The position numbers and the translations under genes were made by a program. This document shows positions 11,671-46,822 of a stretch of 64,000 nucleotides of DNA, in pieces. The DNA comes from Cenarchaeum sp. (GTDB lineage Archaea; Thermoproteota; Nitrososphaeria; Nitrososphaerales; Nitrosopumilaceae): assembly GCA_965242695.1 (NCBI GenBank), contig CBDESU010000002.1:1312001-1376000 (forward strand), written 5' to 3'. The notes beneath the pieces are model-generated. The model worked only from the letters and a program-made list of their open reading frames with translations, made no database searches and was not told where the DNA came from. Every line of letters begins with the position of its first letter. Position 1 is the stretch's first letter.

Positions 11671-11716
11671 CGGCTGCGGTGGCGGCGTCCCTGCCGCCGG
11701 ACGGTGTTGCTGTGTG

Positions 11717-11808
11717 TGCCGGGGGTGGGTTTCGAACCCACGACCTCCAGATTATGAGTATCGCCTTCTTGGAGAAGCTGGCACTCTGACCCGCTGAGCT
11801 ACCCCGGC
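11717..11808 (-). tRNA. tRNA-Met(CAT), probably elongator, with 18-nt intron (11760-11777) at position 30/31
   Basis: GCCGGGG/CCCCGGC-A acceptor, GTGGG-TTCGAAA-CCCAC T arm; after intron removal the anticodon arm is CCAGA-CTCATAA-TCTGG; strict bulge-helix-bulge at the junctions. Confidence 0.93.
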
Positions 11809-35311: not shown

Positions 35312-36961
35312 TTGAGCGGGGAGGATGCCGCCCCTTCCGTCGCGCCACCGCCAGCCGGCGGCGGCGGCAGAGGTGGCTTTGAGGCGCAGCTGCGCTCGCT
35401 CGGGCTGGATCCGGCAAGGGCCCATCGCAACCTGCATCCCGACGAGCTGGCCCGCATGGCCGTAGCCCGCGGCGAGGGCGCGATTGCGAGCACCGGCTCG
35501 CTGTCGGTGCGGACGGGCCGCTACACGGGCCGCTCGCCGGACGACCGCTACATCGTCGACGACGAGACGACGCACGGCACGGTCGACTGGGGCAAGATCA
35601 ACCACCCGCTCGCGCCGGACCTGTTCGCGCGGATCATGGAAAGGATGAAGGCCGCCGCGCGCGAGGCCCCCGAGCTGTTCGTGTTCGACGGCTTTGTCGG
35701 CGCCGATCCTGCCAGCCGCCTGCCGATCCGCGTCATTGGCGACCGCGCCTGGCAGTCGCTGTTCGCCAGGCAGATGTTCATACGGCCGACCGAGTCCGAG
35801 CTCGCCTCGCACGACCCAGAGTTTACCGTCCTGTGCCTCAACGGCTTCGAGGCCGACCCCTCCTCGGACGGGACCAACTCGAACGTCTTCATACTCATCG
35901 ACCTCACGCGCCGGACTGTCCTGATCGGCGGCACGCACTACGCCGGCGAGATCAAAAAGTCCATGTTTACCGTCATGAACTACGTCCTGCCCGCAAGGGG
36001 CATCTTCCCGATGCACTGCTCGGCGAACACGGGCAGGGGCGGGGGCGACACGGCGCTGTTCTTTGGGCTGTCGGGCACGGGCAAGACGTCGCTGTCGGCC
36101 GATCCCGACAGGGGCCTCGTCGGCGACGACGAGCACGGCTGGTCGGACACGGGCGTGTTCAACTTCGAGGGCGGCTGCTACGCAAAGTGCATAAACCTGA
36201 GCCGGGATGCCGAGCCGCAGATATGGGACGCGATCCGGCCGGGAACCGTCCTCGAGAACGTGGTGCTGGCGGGGCCGTCGAACGCGCCGGACTTTGCCGA
36301 CGGCAGCCTCACCGAGAACACGCGGGCCGCCTACCCGCTCGACTACATACCGGGCGCCGTGTCGCCCAGCGTCGGCGGCCACCCCCGCGTGATCGTATTC
36401 CTGACCGCCGACGCGCTCGGCGTCCTCCCGCCCCTCTCGCGCCTCTCGCGCAGCGCGGCCATGTACCACTTCATGTCGGGGTACACGAGCAAGCTTGCGG
36501 GCACGGAGCGCGGCATAAAGGAGCCAAAGGCCGCATTTTCCGAGTGCTTTGGGGCCCCGTTCATGCCGCGGCCGGCGACCGAGTACGCCCGGATGCTCGG
36601 CGAGAAGATCGACCGGCACGGCACGCGCGTGTACCTCGTCAACACGGGGTGGTCTGGCGGGCCGTACGGCGTGGGCAGGCGCATACGGATCGGGCACAGC
36701 CGCGCCATGGTCTCGGCCGTGCTCGGCGGCCGGCTCGACGAGTCCGGCTACCGCCGCGATGCGCTGTTCAACCTCGACGTGCCGGTGTCGTGCCCCGGTG
36801 TGCCGGCCGAGATACTCGACCCGCGCAACACGTGGGACGACAAGGGCGCGTACGACGAGTCGGCCCGCCGCCTCGCCCGCATGTTCGTCGACAACTTTGC
36901 AAAGTTCGGGGGCGCCTCGCCCGACATACGGAACGCGGGGCCGCGCCCCGACGCGTCCTAG
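35312..36961 (+). CDS. pckA: Phosphoenolpyruvate carboxykinase (ATP)
   Basis: TGRSP.D, YAGEIKKS, MHCSAN, GLSGTGKT, DDEHGW, NFEGGCYAK, ENTR; start approximate. Confidence 0.95.
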   Translation: MSGEDAAPSVAPPPAGGGGRGGFEAQLRSLGLDPARAHRNLHPDELARMAVARGEGAIASTGSLSVRTGRYTGRSPDDRYIVDDETTHGTVDWGKINHPLAPDLFARIMERMKAAAREAPELFVFDGFVGADPASRLPIRVIGDRAWQSLFARQMFIRPTESELASHDPEFTVLCLNGFEADPSSDGTNSNVFILIDLTRRTVLIGGTHYAGEIKKSMFTVMNYVLPARGIFPMHCSANTGRGGGDTALFFGLSGTGKTSLSADPDRGLVGDDEHGWSDTGVFNFEGGCYAKCINLSRDAEPQIWDAIRPGTVLENVVLAGPSNAPDFADGSLTENTRAAYPLDYIPGAVSPSVGGHPRVIVFLTADALGVLPPLSRLSRSAAMYHFMSGYTSKLAGTERGIKEPKAAFSECFGAPFMPRPATEYARMLGEKIDRHGTRVYLVNTGWSGGPYGVGRRIRIGHSRAMVSAVLGGRLDESGYRRDALFNLDVPVSCPGVPAEILDPRNTWDDKGAYDESARRLARMFVDNFAKFGGASPDIRNAGPRPDAS

Positions 36962-39285
36962 GCCTGCCGCGCCCCGCCGCCGGACGATCGCGCGGGATGG
37001 CGCGGCATCGGCGGCGCGCGCCTCGACTGCACCGCAATTGCGGCTCCCGCGGCCGCAATGGCGGCGACGGCCGCGGCGACGATGGGCGCCTGCCTCTCGG
37101 GCAGGTGCGGCCAGGGGATGCCGCCGCCGGCCGGGTCGGGCCTTTCACCGCCCGCGGCCCCGTCCCCCGCCGCCCCGGCCACGTCCACCTTGCCGAACGC
37201 ATCGGCGACCGGCCCGCCCGGCCGCCCGCCGACCAGTATGCTAGCCTCGATCCAGTGCGTGCCGCCGCGCTCGACGCCGATGCGCGCCGGCTCGCCTGGC
37301 CTTGACGAGGAGTGGTACTGCGCGCCCGTGAGCGGGTCGGTTACGGTCACCCTCGCGTACGACCAGCCGCCGGGGGCCTCGACGCTGACCTCGAGGGCGC
37401 CCCCCTCCCCGCCGCCCGCACCAAGGCCGAGCCAGCCTGCGCCTCTTGGAACCTCGGCCGCCGAGACCGTCCCGTTCGAGACCCTGACCATGACGGGCAC
37501 AGTGTACGACCCTTCCCCGTCGGAGACGGCAAGCGAGCCGGCCAGCGTGCGCGTTCTCCAGTCGGCCTCGCCTTCCCCCCCGCCCTCCGCGCCGCCGCCA
37601 AGCGACGCACGGAGCGTGACCGTGGCGCCGTTCCCCGGCCCGTACTCGACCGAGTGGTTCCCGGACACGCCGCGCGGCAGGCTCGCCGAGACGTCGAGGG
37701 GCCCCACCGGCCCGCCGTCTATCCTTGCCACGCCGATCGACGCCGAGCCGGACGGCCGCGCCGGCGACGCGTCCAGGTCGAGCAGGGGCGGCTCGAAGAC
37801 GATCCCGGCCGCAAGGGCCCTTGTGGCGTTGAGCCGCCCGGCGCCGGCCGCGTCCGGCAGGCCCCTGCCGACATTCGGCGACCCCTCTGCACCGGCGACC
37901 TCGTCCGCCGTAGTCACAAGGATCGACCTTACGGCCGCCGGCGACAGGCCGGGATGCCTCTCGAGCAGCAGGGCGGCCGCGCCGGCCACGTGCGGCGCGG
38001 CAAAGCTCGTCCCGCTCGACACGTTGTACCCGCCCCCGTTGAGCGTCGTGTTGACGAAGACGCCGGGCGCGACCAGGTCCGGCTTTGGGTAGAACGGAGA
38101 GACGGGGCCCCTCGAGCTGAACCCGACGACAAAGTCGGGGCTCTCCATCACCTCGAGGACCGCCGGCGCCGCGCCCCCTCCCAGTCCAGCCGCCTCGCGC
38201 AGCTCGAGCCCGTCCTCCCTTGAGATCGAGGCGGCCGGGATGGACGGGGCGTACCCGTCGGGGTTGTGCTCGTGGACCAGCTCGCCAAAGAACATGCCCG
38301 GCTCGCTGTTGTACACGACAATGGCGGCCGCGCCGCCGGCAGCCGCGTTGCGCTCCTTGTCCGAAAAGTATACGAGCGTGTCGGGGTCTGCGCTGCCGCG
38401 CTCGGCGAGCACTATCGCGCCTGCCACCGCGGATCCGGCCCGCTCGATGTCGGACTCTGTGGCGTGGCCCGCGAACACGATGCGCCCCTCGACCGGCCCC
38501 TGCGGCTCGGGCGCGCCGACCATCGGGACGGCGCCGTACGTCGAGCCTCCGTACTCGATCGTGGCCACCAGGCCGGCCGTCACGTTGTTGTAGGTGGCGC
38601 CGACGGTAATCACGTTGGGGTTGCGGCCGGGGCTGCCGATGCTGCCGGGATCGGGGCCGTCGTTTCCGGCGGCCGCCACGACGACGACGCCGCCGGCGAC
38701 GGCGCGGTTGACCTCGGCGTCAATGTCCTCGTTGGTCCGGTTCACGCCTAGGCTGATGTTGACCACGTCGGCGCCGTCTGCCACGGCCTCCCTGACTGCC
38801 AGCATGATGACGTCCGGCGAGACCGACAGGCCGTCGCCGGACACCTTGTACGATGCGATCTCGGAGAGCGGGGCCATGCCGCGCAGGGCGCCGCCTGCCG
38901 CAATGACTCCGGCCACGCCCGTGCCGTGCCCATCAGCATCAAAGGCGGGGCCCGCGCCGAGCAGGTTGCGCGAGGCGGCGATCCTCGAGCCGCCGTCCTT
39001 GCCGGCAAAGTCGGGGTGGAACGTGTCGACGCCCGTGTCGATGACGGCGACCTTGATTCCGGCCCCGCCGGGCCCCCCGGCCCGCTCTGCCGGCGCCCCG
39101 CCGCCCCAGACGTACGGGATGCTGTCCTCGAGGGCCTTTGAGGGGAGGCCCGCCCCGGACTGCGGATCGGGCGGACCGGCGGCGGCCCCTGCCGCGAGGC
39201 AGGCCGCCGCAACGGCAACGGCGACGGCCGCAACCGCGGCGGCGAACGCAGGCGCGGGCGCGGCCCGGCCGGATGCGCGGCTCAC
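36958..39285 (-). CDS. Secreted subtilisin-like S8 serine protease with PA domain and C-terminal membrane anchor
   Basis: VIDTG, HGTGVAG, AAAGN, GTSFAAPHVAG; signal peptide; C-terminal hydrophobic helix. Confidence 0.93.
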   Translation of the reverse strand: MSRASGRAAPAPAFAAAVAAVAVAVAAACLAAGAAAGPPDPQSGAGLPSKALEDSIPYVWGGGAPAERAGGPGGAGIKVAVIDTGVDTFHPDFAGKDGGSRIAASRNLLGAGPAFDADGHGTGVAGVIAAGGALRGMAPLSEIASYKVSGDGLSVSPDVIMLAVREAVADGADVVNISLGVNRTNEDIDAEVNRAVAGGVVVVAAAGNDGPDPGSIGSPGRNPNVITVGATYNNVTAGLVATIEYGGSTYGAVPMVGAPEPQGPVEGRIVFAGHATESDIERAGSAVAGAIVLAERGSADPDTLVYFSDKERNAAAGGAAAIVVYNSEPGMFFGELVHEHNPDGYAPSIPAASISREDGLELREAAGLGGGAAPAVLEVMESPDFVVGFSSRGPVSPFYPKPDLVAPGVFVNTTLNGGGYNVSSGTSFAAPHVAGAAALLLERHPGLSPAAVRSILVTTADEVAGAEGSPNVGRGLPDAAGAGRLNATRALAAGIVFEPPLLDLDASPARPSGSASIGVARIDGGPVGPLDVSASLPRGVSGNHSVEYGPGNGATVTLRASLGGGAEGGGEGEADWRTRTLAGSLAVSDGEGSYTVPVMVRVSNGTVSAAEVPRGAGWLGLGAGGGEGGALEVSVEAPGGWSYARVTVTDPLTGAQYHSSSRPGEPARIGVERGGTHWIEASILVGGRPGGPVADAFGKVDVAGAAGDGAAGGERPDPAGGGIPWPHLPERQAPIVAAAVAAIAAAGAAIAVQSRRAPPMPRHPARSSGGGARQA

Positions 39286-39621
39286 GGCACGCGCGGCTGC
39301 GCGTCTTCTATTAACCGGTTACAGCGGCTTGGGCGGGCGCATGGGCCTGCTGGCGGCAGGGCGGGGGGCGGGGGAGGGAGGAGGGGGCTAGCCTGCGCAG
39401 CGGGGAGTATCGTGCGCCTGGCATTCCCGCCGCCTAGGGCGCAGGGAGCGGGGGATTCCACAGCGAGCATGGGAGCGGCCGTCTTCGTCCGAGCCAGCCG
39501 GCGTGTGCCGCGGAGGCGCCATGCCGAGCGAGGCATGCCTGAGGCTTTCTGGCCACTTGAACGGGGCGCGGCAGGGCGTCCGTGCCCCTGCCCTGCCGCC
39601 TCCCAGAGCCCGGCGGCGGCG

Positions 39622-42600
39622 CTACCTGCCCACATCCTCGGGCCTCACAACCTCCACGCCCGTCTCGGCCCTTATGTGGTCCCCAAAGGCCGTAAAGTCC
39701 GAGTCCCACGTCACCAGGCTCGTGCTTGCCGGCCTTGCCGGGTTGACGTGCATGTCTATGGCAGTCGCAAGCACCAGGACGTCCCTGCCCGAGGGCGGCC
39801 CGCCCACGTACCTGGCCGACTTCTTCGCCGCCTTGTCGTCCGCATGCATGCACCACTCCCTTATCGTGTCCTCGCCGGAGTAGAGCCACGCCGACATGAA
39901 CGCCTCCCTAGCCCTTTGCATGCGCATGTCCATCCTGCCGCGGCCCTTGATCACGGTGCACAGCGGGCCTATCGCGTCGTGGAGCATCCTGGAGCGCTGC
40001 TCGCTGCCGGCGACCTTTCCGTACGCCTCGTTGTAGCACACCTGCGGGATAAAGCACTGCCTCTTCTCGAACATGGGCACCATGGACCCCTCAAAGACGG
40101 TCCCGCGCGCCAGGTGGTCTAGGTACGAAATGACGACGTTCGTGTCGCAGACGTACTGCAGGTCCGGCGCGCCTCCTGCCTCGCCTCCCGTTCCGGCGCC
40201 GCGAGGCCCGCCTACGGCCGCGCCGCCCCCGGCAGCCCTCCCGGAGCGGATCCGCCCCCTGTCGATCCTCGAGTAAAAGCCGGCCGAGTACAGGCGGCTG
40301 CCCTCCAGCGACCCGAGGTAGTATTCGGCCGCCTCGCCGTGCCGGCCGAGAATGTCGCAGATCTTTCCGCAATAGTGCCTCTCCTCGCTGTCCGCCGGCT
40401 CGGCCCCGTCGAGCACACTACTGAGAAACTCCCTGGCAGCCTCGTCGCCGTCCTCGCCGCCGCACAGCATGCACACGCCCCTCCAGTACTTTGCCGCTAT
40501 GACCCGGTCGGGCTGCCCCTCGATGGCCGCGTCGTAGTACCGCATAGCGTCGGCGTACCTGGAGCGGTCGCCCGTGCCCTGGGCGTGCTTTCTGGCGGCC
40601 TTTCCGGCTAGCAGGTGCGCCTCCAAGAGGCGGGGATCCAGCGCAATGGCGCCGGCAAAGTACTCCTCGGCCCTCCTAAGGTTGTCGACGTCGCTCCTCT
40701 GCTTGAGGCATGCCTTTCCGGCCCCTATGAGGGGCTCGGGGCCTTCCGGGGACCGCCTCGCGGCTTCTGCGTACGCGTCCTCCGCCTCTACATACAGCCT
40801 CCGCTTTGTCGGCATGTCGACCTCGTCGCGGGCGCGCTTGTACAGGTCGCTTGCCCTGCACATGGCCATTCCGGCGCCGGCCCTTTCCGCGTTCCCGCCG
40901 CACTTGCCGGCAACCTCGTAGTACCACTCGGCCCTGTTGTAGTTGCCGTCCCTTGCAGCCGCGTCGGCTATCGCAAAGTGCGCCGCGTGGCTCCCCGCAT
41001 CGATGCGACTGGCCGCCTCGTAGCACGCGATCGCATCCTTGCGCCTACCCGCCTTCTCGAGGGCGCCGCCGGCCCGCAGGCAGCCCTCGGCGCACTCGGC
41101 TGCAATACCTGCGTCCATTTCGGCGGCCATCTCGTAGCATTCGGCAGCCCTGTCGTGCAGCCCCTCGCCCTCCAGCCCCGCGCCGACGCCGGCGCAGAGC
41201 CTCCCCGTCCCAGCCCCCGCCCCGTCGGCCGCCGCCGCCGCCGCCGCCATGAGCAGGCTGTCGTATGCGGGCGCATGCATGGACTCGGCGTGGAGGGACC
41301 TTGCAATCCCGACATACGCGCGCGATCTCTCGGCGCCAGTTCCGCCCTTCCTGGCCCTGGCATACCACCCCTCGGCCTCGCCATGCATCCCCTCTCCGAG
41401 CAGCGCATCGGCGATGGCAAGGCATGCGGCGCTGCCGCCCGCGCTGCCGGACGCCTCCGCCGCGAAGCGGCGCGGTCCCGGGCCTCCATGCTCTTCCCCC
41501 GGCGCCTCCCCATACGCGGCGGCCGCCTCGGCATGCCTGCCGTCTCCCGAGAGCGAGGCGGCCAGGCCGAGCCACGATGCGGCGCTGCCGCCCGCCTCTG
41601 CGCCGGCCTTGAAGCACGCGGCCGCCTCGCCGTGCCGCGACTCGGCGAACATCGCGCGGCCCCACCTTGCGAGCGCATCCTCGCACTCTTCCGGGCCGAT
41701 CATGCCCGCCGCCTGGGCGCCCCTTACGCACGCGACCGCCTCGGATATCCTAGAGTCGCCGGCCAGCCCGTCGCCGCACCTGACGCAACCGCCGCCGCAC
41801 CTCGGGCGCAGGGATCTGTCCTCCCCGAACGCCCTGCCGTACTCGGCGGCAGCCTCTTCGTGCCTGCCCATATCAAGCAGTATGTCCGCGGCGGCCAAGC
41901 GCAGCCCGGGGCTCTTTTCGCCGCCCCCAGCCCCGCCGCAGCACTCGAGCGCAAGCCGGAGGATCCTCGCCCTGACACCCCTCCCCTTGCCGGCGCCAGC
42001 CCTGTCGGCCATGTCCATGCACGCGCGCGTCTGCTCGAGCGCAAGCGAGGGGTCGAGGGCGGCCGCGCCGGCGTGCGCCTCGGCCGCCGCCTCCAGCCTT
42101 CCCATTTCGCCTAGCGCCCGCCCGCACCTTGCGCAGCCGGCGGCTGCCTTTTCCGATCCGCCGCCGCCCGCCGCCGCCCGGTGCCATCTGGCAGCCTCGG
42201 CATAGTGCCTCGCGGCCTCGCCCGCGTCCCCGCCCCTGCGGGACCGCGCCTCGGCGGCGCACCTTTCGTGCGCCTCTGCACACTCTGGCGCATGCGAGGG
42301 CTCTAGCTTTGCGGCCGCGCCGAGGGCCTCGGCCGCCTCTGCAAGCCTGCCCATGTCGGCAAGCGCCCTGCCGCACCTTGCGCAGCCGGCGGCCGCCTCG
42401 GCTGCCGCGCCCGCATCCCCCGCGCTGGCCTCCTGGTGCCACGACGCGGCCTTTGCATAGTGCGCCGCCGCCTCGTCGTCGCGCCCGCCTGGCCCAGACC
42501 GAAGCGCCGCGCCGCACTCCTCGTGCGCCCTTGCGCACTCTGGCGCATGCGCGCGATCCAGCTCGGCCGCCGCCTCGATGCACGCGGCCGCCTCTTCGGG

Positions 42601-43899
42601 CATTCCCATCTGGCCGAGCGCCCGCCCGCACCTGAGGCACCCGCGCGCATCGCCAATCGTTCCGCCGCCGCCGCCGGCGGGCCCAGAGTACCACTTTCCC
42701 GCCCTCTGGTAGTGATCTGCCGCCGCGTCCGTGCCGCCCGCGCGCAGCGCCGCCGCCCCGAACTTTTCGCAGGCCTCTGCGCACTCTAGCGCATGCGAGG
42801 GGTCGATCCCCGCGGCCGCCTCGAGGGCAGTCGCGGCCTCTTCGAGCCTGCCCCTCTTCCCTAGGGCGCGCCCGCACCTTGCGCAGCCGGCGGCCGCCGC
42901 GTCCGCATCCTCCCCCGCCCCCTTCTGGTACATCTCGGCCGCCCTGGCGTAGTGCCCGTCGGTCCCGATGCCGGCGCCTCCTTGCGGCGGGGCCTCGCAC
43001 TGCGCGTCAGTCGCATCGCCGTCCTTCGCGGCGCCGGCGCACCTTTCGTGCGCCCTTGCGCACTCTAGATCGTGCGCGGGATCCAGCACGGCGGCCGACT
43101 CTAGGGCCGCGGCCGCATCCGCATGCCTGCCCATGGCCGCCAGCGACCTGCCGCACTGCGTGCAGCCCATGGCCGCCTTCCTGAACAGGCCCGGGTCGAT
43201 CCCGGCCGACTCTGCGTACCGCCTTGCAGCCCTGACATACTGCCCGATCTCTTCCAGGGCCGTTCCTGCCCTGAACCTGGCCTCGGCCGAGCCCGGGTCC
43301 GCCCCGCATGCGGCCTCGTAGCACTCGGCCGCCCTGTCGGCGTCTCCCCTGCCGGCGATCACATACCCCATGTCCAGGTGCGTCTGGGACCTTGACGGAT
43401 CAGCTAACAGCGCCGTCCGGTACGGCCCGTCCATGTCGTCGACGGGCTCCTTGACCAGCTCTTCCCAGCATTCGATGCACCTGTCCCGAAGCACCTGCAT
43501 CTTCTTGCGGGCCTTTTGGCCCTCCGAGTCGCCGGCGCGGCCCTGCAGCGACAGCGCGTGCCCGAGCCACGCGCACGCCTCGGCGTACCTGCCGGACTTT
43601 TGGCGCACCTTTGCGCGCTGCGCGCAGACGTCGGCGCAGGCGTGCCACAGGCCGTTTATCCCGGCAGCCTTTTCGAGGCACTCGAGGGCGGCCCTTTCGA
43701 CCTCATCGCCGCCTGCCCCCTCGGCCGCGCCGCCGAGCAGGTTCCTTGCGCACGTCAGGTACGCATTGGCGCATTCCCTGCGCTTCCTGTCCCTGTCGCC
43801 GCCGACCGCGTACTGCAGCTCGACCTCGAGCTGCGCGGCGCGCCGCCGCAGGTCCGGCCCGCCCGCCTCCTTGTCCTCCGACTTGCCGGCCGCGGCCAT
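39622..43899 (-). CDS. 1425-aa TPR-like helical-repeat protein with C-terminal PIN nuclease domain
   Basis: TPR-like segments (AAECYEAACGADP, AIACYEAASRIDA); YVCDTNV...CYNEAY...GRDVLVLATA...LVTWDSDF PIN acidic tetrad; TATAAG ~24 bp upstream. Confidence 0.8.
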   Translation of the reverse strand: MAAAGKSEDKEAGGPDLRRRAAQLEVELQYAVGGDRDRKRRECANAYLTCARNLLGGAAEGAGGDEVERAALECLEKAAGINGLWHACADVCAQRAKVRQKSGRYAEACAWLGHALSLQGRAGDSEGQKARKKMQVLRDRCIECWEELVKEPVDDMDGPYRTALLADPSRSQTHLDMGYVIAGRGDADRAAECYEAACGADPGSAEARFRAGTALEEIGQYVRAARRYAESAGIDPGLFRKAAMGCTQCGRSLAAMGRHADAAAALESAAVLDPAHDLECARAHERCAGAAKDGDATDAQCEAPPQGGAGIGTDGHYARAAEMYQKGAGEDADAAAAGCARCGRALGKRGRLEEAATALEAAAGIDPSHALECAEACEKFGAAALRAGGTDAAADHYQRAGKWYSGPAGGGGGTIGDARGCLRCGRALGQMGMPEEAAACIEAAAELDRAHAPECARAHEECGAALRSGPGGRDDEAAAHYAKAASWHQEASAGDAGAAAEAAAGCARCGRALADMGRLAEAAEALGAAAKLEPSHAPECAEAHERCAAEARSRRGGDAGEAARHYAEAARWHRAAAGGGGSEKAAAGCARCGRALGEMGRLEAAAEAHAGAAALDPSLALEQTRACMDMADRAGAGKGRGVRARILRLALECCGGAGGGEKSPGLRLAAADILLDMGRHEEAAAEYGRAFGEDRSLRPRCGGGCVRCGDGLAGDSRISEAVACVRGAQAAGMIGPEECEDALARWGRAMFAESRHGEAAACFKAGAEAGGSAASWLGLAASLSGDGRHAEAAAAYGEAPGEEHGGPGPRRFAAEASGSAGGSAACLAIADALLGEGMHGEAEGWYARARKGGTGAERSRAYVGIARSLHAESMHAPAYDSLLMAAAAAAADGAGAGTGRLCAGVGAGLEGEGLHDRAAECYEMAAEMDAGIAAECAEGCLRAGGALEKAGRRKDAIACYEAASRIDAGSHAAHFAIADAAARDGNYNRAEWYYEVAGKCGGNAERAGAGMAMCRASDLYKRARDEVDMPTKRRLYVEAEDAYAEAARRSPEGPEPLIGAGKACLKQRSDVDNLRRAEEYFAGAIALDPRLLEAHLLAGKAARKHAQGTGDRSRYADAMRYYDAAIEGQPDRVIAAKYWRGVCMLCGGEDGDEAAREFLSSVLDGAEPADSEERHYCGKICDILGRHGEAAEYYLGSLEGSRLYSAGFYSRIDRGRIRSGRAAGGGAAVGGPRGAGTGGEAGGAPDLQYVCDTNVVISYLDHLARGTVFEGSMVPMFEKRQCFIPQVCYNEAYGKVAGSEQRSRMLHDAIGPLCTVIKGRGRMDMRMQRAREAFMSAWLYSGEDTIREWCMHADDKAAKKSARYVGGPPSGRDVLVLATAIDMHVNPARPASTSLVTWDSDFTAFGDHIRAETGVEVVRPEDVGR
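42000..43200 (-). repeat. Five ~82-93 aa Cys/His repeats (GCxRCGRAL..GR..EAA..L..AA.LDP.HA.ECA.AHE.C...HY..A..W) inside the PIN protein
   Basis: GC..CG motifs near 43167, 42888, 42642, 42387, 42138; ccgcaccttgcgcagccggcgg identical in three copies. Confidence 0.85.
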
Positions 43900-43983: not shown

Positions 43984-44499
43984 GTGAGGCCGTTCGTCCT
44001 GTGGATGACCGGCCTGCCGTGCTCGGGCAAGACGTCGGCGGCGCGCGGGTTGCGACGGCTCGTGCCGAACCTGGCCGTGCTAGACGGCGACGAGCTGCGC
44101 GAGTGGCTGACCTCGCACGACTATACGAGGGAGGGGCGGCGCGAGCACGTGCGCCGCACGGCCCGCCTGGCCGCGCTGCTCTGGCGGCACGGCGTGCCGA
44201 GCTGCGTCCCGACGGTCAGCCCGTACGCCGAGGACCGACAAGAGGCGCGCAGGCTGGCCGCCTGCGGCGGCGCATTCGCCGAGTGCTACGTGCGGTGCCC
44301 GCAGGCCGAGTGCGAGCGGCGCGACGCAAAGGGCATGTATGCCAGGGCGCGCGCCGGCCTGCTGCCCATGTTCACCGGCGTCGGCGACCCGTACGAGGAG
44401 CCCGCAAGCCCCGACCTGGTCGTCGACACGGATCGGGCCGGCATCGCCGAGGCGGCAGACATGATCGCCGACTTTCTGCGCTCGCGCGGCCTGTTGTAG
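43984..44499 (+). CDS. cysC: Adenylyl-sulfate (APS) kinase
   Basis: WMTGLPCSGKT, LDGDELR, SPY..DR, RDAKGMY, FTGVGDPYEEP; TTTTAA at 43955. Confidence 0.93.
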   Translation: MRPFVLWMTGLPCSGKTSAARGLRRLVPNLAVLDGDELREWLTSHDYTREGRREHVRRTARLAALLWRHGVPSCVPTVSPYAEDRQEARRLAACGGAFAECYVRCPQAECERRDAKGMYARARAGLLPMFTGVGDPYEEPASPDLVVDTDRAGIAEAADMIADFLRSRGLL

Positions 44500-44719: not shown

Positions 44720-46822
44720 GTGGACTTTCGGCAGGCGTTCAGGACGCTCGGCCTGGCAGTCGGCTCGACGATCCAAGAGATCAAAAAGGCGTACCACAGG
44801 CTTGCACTCGAGACCCATCCCGACAGGCACCCGGGCGTGGACTGGCCGGACGGCGAGTTCAAGAGGGTGCACGAGGCGTACGAGGCGGCCAAGGACTATG
44901 CCGCCGGCGGGGCTGCGCCGGGCGGCGGCAGGGAAGGGGAGGGCGGCGGCCAAGAGGGGCCGCCGGGCGGCGGCAGGGAAGGGGAGGGCGGCGGCCAAGA
45001 GGGGCCGCCGGGCGGCGGCAGGCCGGGGAGTGGGGGCCACAGATACGACCCGAGCGCGGGGCCGTGGCATCCGGACGACGAGCCACCGTACCGGCGCCGC
45101 ACCGTCGAGGAGATACTGGCGGACGGGCCCGCCGTCGCGAACCTGCTCCGCTGCTTTCCGGGCGGCATGGCGCCGCGCCCCATCCAGCGGCACATACTGT
45201 CCGAGGTGCACGGGCACCTCCTCGCCGGCGCCCGCAGGATCGTCGTGTCCGCCCCGACAGGCGCGGGCAAGTCGGCCGTCGGGGCGGCCCTGGCGCAGTA
45301 CCTGGAGACGTCGTTTGTAGTCACGTCCACGCGCCACCTCCAGGACCAGTACGCCGGCGACTTTGGCTGGCTGCGCGCGGTAAAGGGGCAGAGAAACTTC
45401 GAGTGCCTGGGCATCGCGCAGGGGGAGAAGGGCATCCGGCCGGCCGACCGCGGAGGGTTGCCGCGCATCGAGGAGAGCTGCTACGCCGGGCGGCACAACG
45501 GCTGCGCGCTGCCGGTCGGCATCGCCGAGTTCTGCGCGTCCGCCAGGATGGTCGGCGGCCCGGGCCCCGATGCCGCCGACGCCGCGGCGCACTGCCCGTA
45601 CGACCTGCAGCGGTACTCGGCGCTGCGAAGCGCGCACTCGCTGTGGAACTATGCGATGTACCTGCGGGCGACGCACAGCGAAAAGGACTACGAGGCGCAC
45701 AGGCCGTGGCTGGAGCGCAACGTGGCCATATTCGACGAGGCGCACAACGCCGAAGAGTCCATAATCGACTCCATCGGCCTGGATGTGCTCCGCGCGGAGC
45801 TTGACGAGTGCCGGCTCGGCGTCTCCGCGTACGACCTCGCCGACCTGGACGGCGTCGTGCGCATGCTAGGCGACATCGAGGCCGAGTACGAGCGCATGCT
45901 CAAGGAGGAAAAGCGCATCCAGGCGGGCAGGGCGAGCCCAGACCTGCGCCGCGCCACGCACCTGCAGGAAAAGGCCGACAAGTACTCGGACATATGCGAC
46001 GAGATCTGCCTCAACCCGGCCAACTTTGTGGTGAACGACCCCGTGCTCGGCGCCGACGGGTCGTTCGAGTCCCTCCTGATAAAGCCCCTGTCCGTCCGGC
46101 GGTACGCCGACTCGGTGTTCCGCACCCCCGTCCAGATCTTCATGTCGGCCACGATACACAAGGAGACGTTCTGCCGCAGCATGGGGTTTTCGCCCGACGA
46201 GGTCGCCTTTGTCGACACGCCCGAGTCGCCGTTTCCACTCGAGCGGCGCAGGGTCGAGTTCCTGGACGTGGCCGCCCTCTCGGCCAAGCGGCCGGAGAAC
46301 GAGGCGCCGGTAATCGCCGAGATCGACAGGATACTCGATCGGCACGCCGGCGAGCGCGGCCTCATCCTCACGTCGTCAAAGTCCAGGTGCTGGAGGATAC
46401 TCGAGGGCCTCTCGCCGGCCAGCCGCGGGCGCGTCCGCATCTGCCACGCAGTCAACAGGGGCGGGCGGACGCAGGATCAGGTGATCGACGAGCATTCGCG
46501 CACGCCGGGCAGCGTCCTGCTGTCGTCGTCGCTGTGGCAGGGCGCGGACCTGGCCGGCGACAGGTCGAGGTTCCAGATCATCGCAAAGACGCCGTACCTG
46601 AACTACACCGAAAAGTGGGTCAAGCGGAAGGTAGAGGCCGAGCCGGAGTGGGCCGACGCCCATGCGCTGACCCGGGTGCTCCAGGGAATGGGCCGCTCGG
46701 TGCGCAGCGAGGACGACCATGCCATAACGTACGTCCTCGACTCGAACACGCACGCGCTGATAAGGAGGCGCGCCGGCGTGATCCCCGCCGCGTACCACGA
46801 CGCCCTGGGGATCGGCGGATGA
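44720..46822 (+). CDS. J-domain (DnaJ) fused to DinG/XPD/YoaA-family SF2 helicase
   Basis: N-terminal FRTLGL....EIKKAYHRLALETHPD...FKRVHEAYE; PRPIQ, APTGAGKS, Cys cluster ending CPY, DEAH, MSAT, QGMGRSVRSEDD. Confidence 0.88.
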   Translation: MDFRQAFRTLGLAVGSTIQEIKKAYHRLALETHPDRHPGVDWPDGEFKRVHEAYEAAKDYAAGGAAPGGGREGEGGGQEGPPGGGREGEGGGQEGPPGGGRPGSGGHRYDPSAGPWHPDDEPPYRRRTVEEILADGPAVANLLRCFPGGMAPRPIQRHILSEVHGHLLAGARRIVVSAPTGAGKSAVGAALAQYLETSFVVTSTRHLQDQYAGDFGWLRAVKGQRNFECLGIAQGEKGIRPADRGGLPRIEESCYAGRHNGCALPVGIAEFCASARMVGGPGPDAADAAAHCPYDLQRYSALRSAHSLWNYAMYLRATHSEKDYEAHRPWLERNVAIFDEAHNAEESIIDSIGLDVLRAELDECRLGVSAYDLADLDGVVRMLGDIEAEYERMLKEEKRIQAGRASPDLRRATHLQEKADKYSDICDEICLNPANFVVNDPVLGADGSFESLLIKPLSVRRYADSVFRTPVQIFMSATIHKETFCRSMGFSPDEVAFVDTPESPFPLERRRVEFLDVAALSAKRPENEAPVIAEIDRILDRHAGERGLILTSSKSRCWRILEGLSPASRGRVRICHAVNRGGRTQDQVIDEHSRTPGSVLLSSSLWQGADLAGDRSRFQIIAKTPYLNYTEKWVKRKVEAEPEWADAHALTRVLQGMGRSVRSEDDHAITYVLDSNTHALIRRRAGVIPAAYHDALGIGG
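44916..45022 (+). repeat. 45-bp tandem repeat (~2.4 copies) encoding the PGGGREGEGGGQEGP linker
   Basis: Units start at 44916, 44961, 45006. Confidence 0.9.

What the first reader, a model, noticed from the sequence alone, without database searches (positions are those of the whole stretch)
39622..43899. Giant TPR-like protein carrying an intact C-terminal PIN nuclease
Seen: the last ~175 aa (39622-40160) keep all PIN acidic positions (DTN, E in CYNEAY, D in GRDVL, D-x-D in TWDSDF), behind a Gly-rich linker and ~1200 aa of helical repeats; no signal peptide or NTPase motif is visible and no small antitoxin gene is adjacent. Inference: a single-chain, autoinhibited sensor-RNase (abortive-infection-like) or host-interaction effector.
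Basis: partly seen in the sequence, partly recalled or inferred. Interest (0 to 1): 0.7.

Follow-up and report, generated by a model that had tools for sequence, protein, structure and literature searches.

The report
Giant TPR–PIN nuclease in sponge archaeon
A real 1425-residue archaeal protein joins a very long stack of protein-binding helical repeats to an apparently intact RNA/DNA-cutting (PIN) domain of a previously unannotated, lineage-restricted family that is heavily multiplied in this sponge-associated ammonia oxidiser.

Summary
Window 39622-43899 (-) is a real, conserved 1425-aa gene. It has about 1215 aa of TPR repeats, a 32-aa Gly-rich linker and a 178-aa C-terminal domain.

The C-terminal domain folds as a PIN domain (AF2 pLDDT 87.6; VapC15 Z 11.8). 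D1252, E1291, D1373, D1399 and D1401 are invariant in 14 orthologs. Pfam's PIN models miss their cut-offs, so it is a divergent PIN-like family.

The main new point is context. The host is a sponge-associated, amoA-bearing archaeon. The same PIN-like domain occurs in 22-24 copies in this genome and 11 in one sister genome. It was found in 0 of 39 other relatives searched.

Four copies per genome are fused to TPR arrays and form one side of the domain tree. The other 18 are ~200-aa proteins. Sixteen of them lie just downstream of a ~500-aa TPR-plus-helical partner gene, usually with a 4-nt overlap.

The target has no antitoxin, NTPase, signal peptide or known defence-system match. Best reading (about 0.45): a cytoplasmic, TPR-controlled or TPR-targeted metal-dependent endonuclease of a conflict or stress system. 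A host-effector role and an SMG6-like RNA-decay adaptor role remain open. Autoinhibition is untested.

The parts
39622..43899 (-). Whole gene, 1425 codons plus TAG stop at 39622-39624
   Evidence: 16 homolog clusters; dN/dS 0.40 vs sister-genome ortholog
40255..43899 (-). TPR-type alpha-solenoid, residues 1-1215 (24% Ala, 14% Gly, 52 Cys)
   Evidence: Pfam TPR_8, TPR_2, TPR_16, TPR_11 and TPR_19 above cut-off; composition
41776..43164 (-). Run of ~84-aa double-TPR units (residues 246-708), each with conserved Cys in a CxxC ... C-x6/7-C pattern: 246/249/280/287, 339/342/373, 421/424/455, 506/509/540/547, 589/592/627, 705/708
   Evidence: Cys conservation table; alignment A1. That these Cys fall on the canonical buried TPR positions 4, 7 and 11 is my mapping to the recalled TPR consensus, not a tool result
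40159..40254 (-). Gly-rich linker, residues 1216-1247 (38% Gly), the least conserved segment (42% identity to the sister ortholog)
39625..40158 (-). PIN-like nuclease domain, residues 1248-1425
   Evidence: AF2 pLDDT 87.6, pTM 0.84; Foldseek best hit VapC 3h87_B, E 9.2e-4; VIA-align 4chg_A Z 11.8, rmsd 3.0, 129 aa; Pfam PIN_4 E 0.017, below cut-off
40144..40146 (-). D1252, first acidic residue (DTN, end of strand 1)
40027..40029 (-). E1291, second acidic residue (YNEAY, helix after strand 2)
39781..39783 (-). D1373, third acidic residue (GGPPSGRDVLVLATA, helix N-terminus)
39697..39705 (-). D1399-S-D1401 (LVTWDSDF, after strand 4)
43990..44499 (+). Divergent upstream neighbour: adenylylsulfate (APS) kinase; context only, not a partner
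   Evidence: PF01583 2.8e-39; the same neighbour stretch is conserved beside the sister-genome ortholog
36958..39285 (-). Downstream neighbour: S8 subtilase with PA domain; not adjacent to the ortholog in the sister genome
   Evidence: in G004 an 8.8-kb stretch holding a 2805-aa beta-helix protein lies between them

Best explanation
The gene encodes a cytoplasmic single-chain protein. A ~1215-aa TPR solenoid (a protein- or peptide-binding scaffold) is tethered by a flexible Gly-rich linker to a catalytically competent PIN-like Mg2+/Mn2+-dependent endonuclease, most likely an RNase.

The nuclease belongs to a lineage-restricted PIN-like family that is always coupled to TPR proteins. In most copies the coupling is in trans: a ~500-aa partner with TPRs and a helical domain is encoded just upstream and appears translationally coupled. 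In one clade, which includes this gene, the coupling is in cis, as a fusion.

I infer that the TPR part binds a protein ligand and thereby gates the nuclease or brings it to its target. I also infer that the family serves an intragenomic or virus-host conflict or stress function (toxin-antitoxin-like or abortive-infection-like) and not housekeeping RNA processing.

Shown: gene reality, TPR array, PIN fold, conserved acidic set, family expansion, TPR coupling. Inferred: nuclease activity, RNA as substrate, regulation by the TPR array, biological role.
For: PIN fold: AF2 pLDDT 87.6, pTM 0.84. In VIA-align, 13 of the top 16 rows are VapBC, FitAB or other toxin-antitoxin complexes by title, with a top Z of 11.8. 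Foldseek's top rows are VapC, SMG6, HARP and FitB. The protein-atlas nearest clusters are named PIN-domain proteins, score 0.91.

Active site: five acidic residues are invariant in 14 orthologs and kept across the family. dN/dS of the PIN part is 0.34, the lowest of seven segments.

Family expansion: 22 ORFs in this genome match the domain profile; 24 and 11 matches occur in the two genomes that have it, out of 41 searched.

Coupling to TPR:
- Of 18 short copies, 16 have an ORF of one partner family directly upstream on the same strand.
- In 10 of 14 junctions examined, a start codon overlaps the partner's stop by 4 nt.
- The partner carries TPRs (TPR_19 1.1e-8).
- Stand-alone TPR proteins (8 copies of one family) flank the cassettes.
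- Seven long forms in the two genomes were scanned. Five have TPR families above Pfam's cut-off and two have only sub-threshold TPR-like hits.
- The 19 TPR-fused-type domains lie on one side of a branch of the domain tree, SH-aLRT 94.

Accessory status: found in 2 of 5 genomes of the genus and 0 of 36 others searched. Two of the four fused paralogs sit beside MmeI/Eco57I-like restriction-modification genes.

Location: no signal peptide-like or membrane segment.
Against: No biochemical evidence exists for any member.

Pfam's PIN models score below their cut-offs (15.8 bits against 21.9). Sequence searches of the PDB find no PIN.

The target has no partner or antitoxin gene and lies among housekeeping genes: APS kinase, PEPCK, SOD, FtsY-like, ATCase. 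It is not in an evident defence island. PADLOC finds no match.

The fused TPR array is not homologous to the cassette partner beyond generic TPR similarity (best blastp E 3e-4). So 'the fusion replaces the partner' is an analogy only.

dN/dS of 0.4 is compatible with many roles. The branch uniting the fused forms is supported at 94, below the tool's 95 star, and long branches are flagged.

Spatial clustering of the acidic residues and any TPR-PIN contact were not measured.
Confidence: 0.45

Rival explanations
1. Adaptor-guided RNA decay or processing factor, working like eukaryotic SMG6. The helical-repeat part docks on a protein of a target ribonucleoprotein, and the constitutively competent PIN domain cleaves the bound RNA. 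The role is regulatory, not a conflict system.
For: The domain order matches SMG5/SMG6: a TPR-like helical domain followed by a C-terminal PIN whose active site is D1251, E1282, D1353, D1392 (passages of PMC12923823). SMG6/EST1A and Nmd4 PIN domains are among the fold matches. The best Pfam model is PIN_4. The target has housekeeping neighbours and no partner gene. The protein appears cytoplasmic.
Against: The gene is accessory: found in 2 of 41 relatives searched and missing from 3 of 5 genomes of its own genus. The family has 22-24 copies per genome, some in tandem arrays, which is unlike core RNA-processing factors. Structurally the domain is nearer to VapC toxins (Z 11.8) than to EST1A/SMG6 (Z 7.6) or SMG5 (Z 5.4).
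Confidence: 0.2
2. Host-interaction 'eukaryotic-like protein'. The TPR array binds sponge proteins, and the protein acts on or inside host cells, with the PIN domain degrading host RNA.
For: The DNA is held by sponge-metagenome runs: 9 rows hold at least half of the sampled words, and the 12 holder rows come from 6 studies. The genome carries archaeal amoA. TPR proteins are a recognised class of eukaryotic-like proteins in sponge symbionts (passages of PMC7848895). Single eukaryotic-like proteins expressed in cyanobacteria let them escape sponge phagocytosis (PMC13747020; start of abstract in the search listing only). The protein evolves fairly fast (dN/dS 0.40).
Against: No signal peptide-like or membrane segment was found (a simple hydropathy test only). 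No export machinery gene lies nearby. Most family members are small two-gene cassettes with translational coupling, the layout of intracellular toxin-partner modules. Three other genomes of the same genus lack the family.
Confidence: 0.15
3. The PIN-like domain is a DNA nuclease or a non-catalytic nucleic-acid-binding module tied to genome plasticity, such as propagation or control of the repeated cassettes. It is not an RNase.
For: The PIN-like superfamily includes DNA nucleases such as FEN-like enzymes (PMC5499597, abstract and passages). The family is multi-copy, with a tandem array of 5 cassettes. IS66 and DDE transposases lie near some copies.
Against: The best fold matches are RNA-cleaving VapC-type PIN domains. 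The full acidic set is conserved. No transposase is consistently linked to the cassettes.
Confidence: 0.1

Closest known systems
VapC-type PIN toxins of type II toxin-antitoxin systems (e.g. M. tuberculosis VapC15, PDB 4chg; VapC21, 5sv2; VapC11, 6a7v)
   Same: Best structural matches (Z 11.8-11.4, rmsd 3.0-3.4 over 129-130 aa). Same order of acidic residues: D at the end of strand 1, E after strand 2, D at a helix N-terminus, D-x-D after strand 4, with DTN and T-x-D-x-DF motifs. The short relatives are the second gene of a translationally coupled pair.
   Different: Sequence identity is 15-16%, and the Pfam PIN models score below threshold. The domain carries about 45 extra residues of helical insert bearing a family-specific W-x-x-S ... 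W motif and a GGPPxGxD motif. The target is fused to 1215 aa of TPR and has no antitoxin gene. In the cassettes the upstream partner is ~500 aa (TPR plus helical domain), not a small DNA-binding antitoxin.
SMG6 / SMG5 (eukaryotic nonsense-mediated decay)
   Same: TPR-like helical domain followed by a C-terminal PIN domain. SMG6 has a four-residue acidic site, D1251, E1282, D1353, D1392 (PMC12923823, passages). SMG6/EST1A PIN domains appear among the fold matches.
   Different: The host is an archaeon with no NMD machinery known (recalled). The repeat part here is a canonical TPR array by Pfam, not a 14-3-3-like fold (not tested structurally). The PIN domain is structurally closer to VapC than to EST1A (Z 11.8 against 7.6). 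The resemblance is one of architecture, probably convergent.
TPR-sensor/nuclease-effector STAND defence proteins (Avs-type) - recalled, not fetched
   Same: A single chain combines a long TPR-type sensor array with a nuclease effector. The host lives in a virus-rich habitat.
   Different: No central NTPase: no Walker A motif, no NTPase Pfam family and no PADLOC match. The domain order is TPR then nuclease at the C-terminus.
Protein-only RNase P (PRORP: PPR repeats + Zn site + NYN domain; HARP)
   Same: Helical repeats plus a PIN-like metallonuclease. HARP is among the fold matches (Z 7.0). Two of 17 family members give weak NYN hits.
   Different: There is no PPR family hit. The gene is accessory and multi-copy. 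The matches are far weaker than those to VapC.
TPR-class eukaryotic-like proteins of sponge symbionts
   Same: A long TPR array in a sponge-associated symbiont (PMC7848895 passages).
   Different: It carries an enzymatic nuclease domain. The term 'PIN' does not occur in PMC7848895 (0 occurrences). No secretion signal was seen.

Membership tests
PIN domain-like superfamily | Rossmann-like alpha/beta/alpha fold with a parallel beta-sheet (as described in PMC5499597, passage) | tested here: met
   AF2 pLDDT 87.6 with strand-helix alternation; VIA-align Z 11.8 to VapC15 and 21 chains at Z >= 8, nearly all PIN proteins by title; Foldseek top rows are PIN domains
PIN domain-like superfamily | Conserved acidic residues at the C-terminal ends of the core strands | tested here: met
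   D1252, E1291, D1373, D1399 and D1401 are invariant in 14 orthologs and kept across the family. Their positions relative to the predicted strands fit. 3-D clustering was not measured
PIN domain-like superfamily | Score above the gathering threshold of a Pfam PIN-clan model | tested here: not met
   PIN_4 scores 15.8 bits against a cut-off of 21.9, E 0.017. Among 17 family domains, 8 hit PIN_4 (best E 1.2e-4) and 8 hit PIN (best 4.7e-4), all weak. So this is a divergent, unmodelled subfamily
PIN domain-like superfamily | Metal-dependent nuclease activity | not testable with these tools
   Needs a biochemical assay
VapBC type II toxin-antitoxin | Small stand-alone PIN toxin (~130-150 aa) | tested here: not met
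   The target is a 1425-aa fusion. Short relatives of ~200 aa exist elsewhere in the genome
VapBC type II toxin-antitoxin | Small antitoxin gene directly upstream, usually overlapping | tested here: not met
   The target's upstream neighbour is a divergent APS kinase. The only small overlapping ORF lies downstream and is non-conserved and non-coding-like. The short relatives do have an overlapping upstream gene, but it is ~500 aa
SMG6-like TPR-PIN endonucleases | 14-3-3-like/TPR-like helical domain N-terminal to an active PIN domain | tested here: inconclusive
   TPR followed by PIN is met. The PIN domain is nearer to VapC than to EST1A
STAND (Avs-like) TPR-nuclease defence proteins | Central STAND NTPase with a Walker A motif | tested here: not met
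   No [AG]x4GK[ST] motif; only TPR families in Pfam; no PADLOC hit at E <= 0.1
PRORP / HARP protein-only RNase P | PPR repeats plus a NYN-type domain, or a HARP-type oligomeric PIN; single essential copy | tested here: not met
   No PPR family hit. NYN hits are weak in 2 of 17 members. HARP Z is 7.0 against 11.8 for VapC. The gene is accessory and multi-copy
Sponge-symbiont eukaryotic-like proteins (TPR class) | TPR repeats in a sponge-associated symbiont | tested here: met
Sponge-symbiont eukaryotic-like proteins (TPR class) | Export to, or contact with, the host | tested here: inconclusive
   No hydrophobic N-terminus or membrane segment by a simple hydropathy scan. No dedicated signal-peptide predictor was available

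The most novel reading that the evidence does not exclude
The TPR-coupled PIN-like proteins form a previously undescribed, NTPase-free class of sensor-nuclease conflict system that arose in sponge-symbiotic ammonia-oxidising archaea. Its two-gene form pairs a TPR/helical partner with a translationally coupled ~200-aa nuclease. Its single-chain form, this gene, carries a giant Cys-studded TPR array as a built-in receptor. When that array engages a viral or host protein, it frees or positions the nuclease.
Probability: 0.25. Interest if true: 0.75.

Novelty: new variant of a known kind. Interest (0 to 1): 0.55.

Why it matters
PIN nucleases are among the commonest toxin and RNA-processing modules, but what controls them outside the classical small-antitoxin scheme is poorly known.

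Here a divergent PIN-like family that Pfam, NCBIfam and PADLOC do not recognise is tied again and again to TPR proteins, both as fusions and as overlapping gene pairs. It has expanded to 22-24 copies in the roughly 3.9-Mb genome of a sponge-symbiotic ammonia oxidiser whose relatives mostly have 1.5-1.8-Mb genomes.

If the TPR part senses a protein ligand and gates the nuclease, this would be a simple, NTPase-free sensor-effector design. It would also give a concrete enzymatic function to some of the 'eukaryotic-like' TPR proteins of sponge symbionts. The system is directly testable with three constructs: isolated domain, full length, and acidic-residue mutant.

Tried and rejected
- **TPR-PIN docking.** The queue was full each time, and the tool was declared unavailable. 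Nothing was folded, so autoinhibition is untested.
- **Related loci elsewhere.** Scans of genome contigs, metagenome contigs and viral contigs found no relative. These scans are pattern-based and may leave out the window's own genus.
- **PDB by sequence.** The single domain gave 0 hits. The A2 profile gave only chance-level non-PIN rows, E >= 0.64.
- **Profile comparison.** hhalign of the family profile against five canonical PF01850 ORFs of the same genome gave probability 1.1%. That set is small and heterogeneous, so the result is uninformative.
- **Family libraries.** NCBIfam gave only sub-threshold TPR-type hits. PADLOC gave nothing for the target, the 560-aa paralog or a short PIN copy, and for the cassette partner only a chance-level PrimPol row (E 0.049).
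- **Cassette partner fold.** AF2 pLDDT 71.5. Foldseek PDB gave no match at E <= 0.001, only generic TPR rows. The winged-helix impression from its secondary structure is unconfirmed.
- **Word-indexed search for longer fused forms** returned only the same 16 orthologs.
- **Expression.** No RNA holder was listed among the sequencing runs.
- **The 117-aa ORF 39282-39635 as an antitoxin** was rejected.
- **Methanogen host** was rejected: no mcrA.

Full report

Window 39622-43899 (-) is a single 1425-codon ORF starting with ATG. The window is 66-73% G+C, and such DNA throws up many long spurious ORFs; several of 300-500 aa overlap this gene on other frames. I therefore tested whether the gene is real.
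- Its codon-position G+C is 0.70/0.59/0.85, the pattern of the window's Pfam-confirmed genes. Antisense frames show the inverse pattern.
- A protein search restricted to the last 206 residues found 16 clusters of 962-1481 aa, all with precomputed TPR families, at 54-100% identity.
- The ortholog in the one sister genome that has it (G004) is 62% identical over 1446 aligned positions by tblastn.
- A Nei-Gojobori estimate gives dN/dS 0.40 overall (1408 codons) and 0.34 for the C-terminal domain.
- The 14 aligned homologs start at the same Met.

The gene is real.

**2. Anatomy**

Pfam places five TPR families above their cut-offs (TPR_8 5.7e-16, TPR_2 1.2e-12 with 6 stretches, TPR_16, TPR_11, TPR_19). 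NCBIfam adds only sub-threshold TPR-type hits.

Residues 1-1215 are 24% Ala and 14% Gly and hold 52 of the protein's 57 Cys. Residues 1216-1247 are 38% Gly. Residues 1248-1425 have an ordinary composition.

There is no Walker A motif. The most hydrophobic 19-residue window scores only 1.26, so I see no membrane span and no signal-like N-terminus (a simple scan, not a dedicated predictor).

**3. The C-terminal domain**

By sequence alone it is only a borderline PIN. PIN_4 scores E 0.017 and 15.8 bits against a cut-off of 21.9. Sequence searches of the PDB give nothing relevant.

Of 17 family domains scanned one by one, 8 hit PIN_4 (best 1.2e-4), 8 hit PIN (best 4.7e-4) and 2 hit NYN, all weakly.

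Structure settles the question.
- AlphaFold2 on a 17-row alignment gives mean pLDDT 87.6 and pTM 0.84, with alternating strands and helices.
- Foldseek against the PDB ranks VapC (3h87_B, E 9.2e-4; the only row at E <= 0.001), VapC11, SMG6, HARP and FitB first.
- An independent all-against-representatives alignment gives VapC15 (4chg_A) Z 11.8, rmsd 3.0 Å over 129 residues. Thirteen of the top 16 rows are VapBC, FitAB or other toxin-antitoxin complexes by title, and 21 chains reach Z >= 8.
- The protein-language-model atlas also puts it next to clusters named 'PIN domain-containing protein', score 0.91.

D1252, E1291, D1373, D1399 and D1401 are invariant in 14 orthologs. In a 13-row alignment spanning the whole family, D1373, D1399 and D1401 are invariant, and D1252 and E1291 are kept in at least 90%. 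They sit where PIN active-site residues sit relative to the predicted strands: at the end of strand 1, in the helix after strand 2, at a helix N-terminus, and after strand 4. The fold is described in PMC5499597 (passage).

Compared with VapC, the domain has about 45 extra residues. These are two long helices (domain residues 90-129) carrying a family-specific AWLYS...W motif, and a GGPPxGxD motif leads into the third acidic residue. I could not read model coordinates, so the spatial clustering of the acidic residues rests on the fold match and was not measured.

**4. Neighbours**

Upstream and divergent lies an APS kinase (window 43990-44496, PF01583, 2.8e-39). Downstream on the same strand lies an S8 subtilase with a PA domain. 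Further out are PEPCK, a DnaJ-helicase fusion, Fe/Mn superoxide dismutase, an FtsY-like SRP GTPase and aspartate carbamoyltransferase.

The 117-aa ORF that overlaps the stop codon (39282-39635) has no Pfam hit, no tblastn match in the sister genome and no coding-like G+C pattern.

In the sister genome the ortholog keeps the upstream neighbour stretch. It is separated from the subtilase by a 2805-aa beta-helix protein. There is therefore no conserved partner gene.

**5. Host**

The window holds a 93-nt tRNA-Trp, which implies an intron. The genome encodes PurP and archaeal AmoA (2.1e-118) but no McrA. It is 3.89 Mb in two contigs, while 20 of 24 family relatives listed are 0.8-1.8 Mb.

The gene's DNA is held nearly complete (at least half of the sampled words) by 9 runs. 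The 12 holder rows come from 6 studies, and five runs are labelled sponge metagenome.

The host is thus a sponge-associated ammonia-oxidising archaeon. High G+C and TPR-type 'eukaryotic-like proteins' are described for such symbionts (PMC7848895, passages). That paper never mentions PIN (0 occurrences).

**6. The family: the main new finding**

An exhaustive single-sequence phmmer of the domain against 1.84 billion representatives found only 13 proteins at E <= 1e-3 (10 at <= 1e-10). Nearly all carry the domain at the C-terminus of a longer protein.

A profile of the domain, however, finds 22 ORFs in this genome. A broader profile gives 24 matches here and 11 in G004, and none at E <= 1e-5 in 39 other genomes: 3 of the same genus, 20 of the same family and 16 of other families of the order. 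A word-indexed profile search found 44 clusters of short (96-297 aa) proteins in public data, none with a Pfam family or a name.

In this genome four copies are long: the target, a 1715-aa frame, a 953-aa protein and a 560-aa frame. I scanned seven long forms from the two genomes. Five have TPR families above Pfam's cut-off, and two (the 560-aa frame and G004 locus L008) have only sub-threshold TPR-like hits.

The other 18 copies are ~200-aa ORFs that Pfam does not recognise (3 scanned).
- Sixteen of the 18 lie directly downstream, on the same strand, of an ORF of one ~470-540-aa family.
- In 10 of 14 junctions examined, a candidate start codon overlaps the partner's stop by 4 nt. One overlaps by 13 nt, two have gaps of 6-58 nt, and one gave no candidate.
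- One partner scanned has TPRs (TPR_19 1.1e-8). A divergent one has no Pfam hit.
- The partner's AF2 model (pLDDT 71.5) is helical with one beta-hairpin and matches nothing specific in the PDB.
- Classical stand-alone TPR proteins, one family with 8 copies near the cassettes, flank several of them.
- Five cassettes form a tandem array at G000:C1:1327103-1339000.
- Two of the four fused paralogs lie next to MmeI/Eco57I-like restriction-modification genes.

For the domain tree I gave 49 rows, and 46 were kept; 3 were dropped for covering fewer than 120 profile columns. The tree puts the 19 TPR-fused-type domains on one side of a branch (SH-aLRT 94, just below the tool's 95 star; long branches flagged). 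Inside it, four sub-lineages are each shared by the two genomes or by metagenomic proteins. The target groups with its orthologs at 96. The two 588-aa 'long' rows on the other side are stop-to-stop artefacts of cassette copies. P0027 (665 aa, different composition) is a long branch of uncertain place.

The fused TPR array shows only generic TPR similarity to the cassette partner (best E 3e-4).

**7. How it most likely works**

Shown:
- a TPR solenoid, a flexible linker and a PIN fold with a complete, conserved acidic set;
- an accessory, multi-copy, lineage-restricted family;
- a recurrent physical or genetic link between this nuclease domain and TPR proteins.

Inferred: the domain is a Mg2+/Mn2+-dependent endonuclease, probably an RNase, as its closest structural relatives are. 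The TPR part binds a protein ligand and gates or targets the nuclease. The family acts in conflict or stress, in a toxin-partner-like or abortive-infection-like way. I put this at about 0.45.

The fused clade has no partner gene and no NTPase and no PADLOC match. If it is a sensor-nuclease, it is of a simple, undescribed design.

Rivals:
- An SMG6-like adaptor-guided RNA decay factor (0.2). The domain order is the same as in SMG5/SMG6 (PMC12923823 passages), but the gene is accessory and its PIN is closer to VapC than to EST1A (Z 11.8 against 7.6).
- A host-directed eukaryotic-like effector (0.15). The sponge setting fits, and ELP expression alters phagocytosis (PMC13747020, start of abstract seen in the search listing only). 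No export signal was found, and the cassette layout points to an intracellular module.
- A DNA nuclease or non-catalytic role tied to the repeated cassettes (0.1).

**8. Novelty**

In the library I searched, no paper links PIN domains with sponge Thaumarchaeota; the top 10 of the 32 papers holding at least 3 of the 4 terms have 0 occurrences of 'PIN domain'. The main text of the PIN superfamily classification does not contain 'TPR' (0 occurrences). Supplements were not read.

I class the finding as a new variant of a known kind: a new, unmodelled PIN-like subfamily with a new TPR-coupled architecture.

Noticed in passing
G000:C1:1327103-1339000 (outside the window); other copies listed: Tandem array of five two-gene cassettes. 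Each has a ~510-aa TPR-plus-helical partner followed by a ~200-aa PIN-like ORF overlapping it by 4 nt. At least 16 such cassettes are scattered in the genome, several flanked by ~550-aa classical TPR proteins.
   Followed up: partly
window 41776-43164 (-), residues 246-708: Repeated ~84-aa double-TPR units carry conserved Cys in a CxxC ... C-x6/7-C pattern. Most are conserved in 12/12 or 14/14 orthologs. They seem to fall on the canonical buried TPR positions 4, 7 and 11 (my mapping, from recall). They could be core packing residues or Zn sites.
   Followed up: partly
window 44720-46822 (+): A 700-aa protein fuses an N-terminal DnaJ (J) domain, via a Gly/Pro-rich repeat, to an XPD/Rad3-like helicase (ResIII plus Helicase_C_2). 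This is an unusual combination.
   Followed up: no
G000:C1:43438-46167 (+) and C1:227439-230378 (+): MmeI/Eco57I-like type IIG restriction-modification genes lie next to two of the four TPR-PIN paralogs, the 560-aa and the 953-aa ones.
   Followed up: no
L009:971-9385 (+) (sister genome G004): A 2805-aa beta-helix (Beta_helix, Chondroitinase_B, NosD-like) protein is inserted between the ortholog and the subtilase. A related 1862-aa Big_5-plus-beta-helix protein lies near cassettes in G000.
   Followed up: no
window 11716-11808 (-): tRNA-Trp(CCA) of 93 nt, which implies an intron.
   Followed up: no
G000:C1:15923-17686 and C2:1662360-1664123: A block of more than 10 kb, including one partner-PIN cassette and the start of a giant (>3000 aa) ORF, appears duplicated on both contigs, with identical ORF lengths and order. 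It is either a large repeat or an assembly duplication near a contig end.
   Followed up: no
P0027 (665 aa) and P0026 (158 aa): Distant members of the same PIN-like family (GPPxGxD and T-x-D-x-D motifs) come from A+T-rich organisms. P0027 has a different, non-TPR-looking N-terminal part with a hydrophobic segment. The family therefore reaches beyond the high-GC sponge lineage.
   Followed up: no
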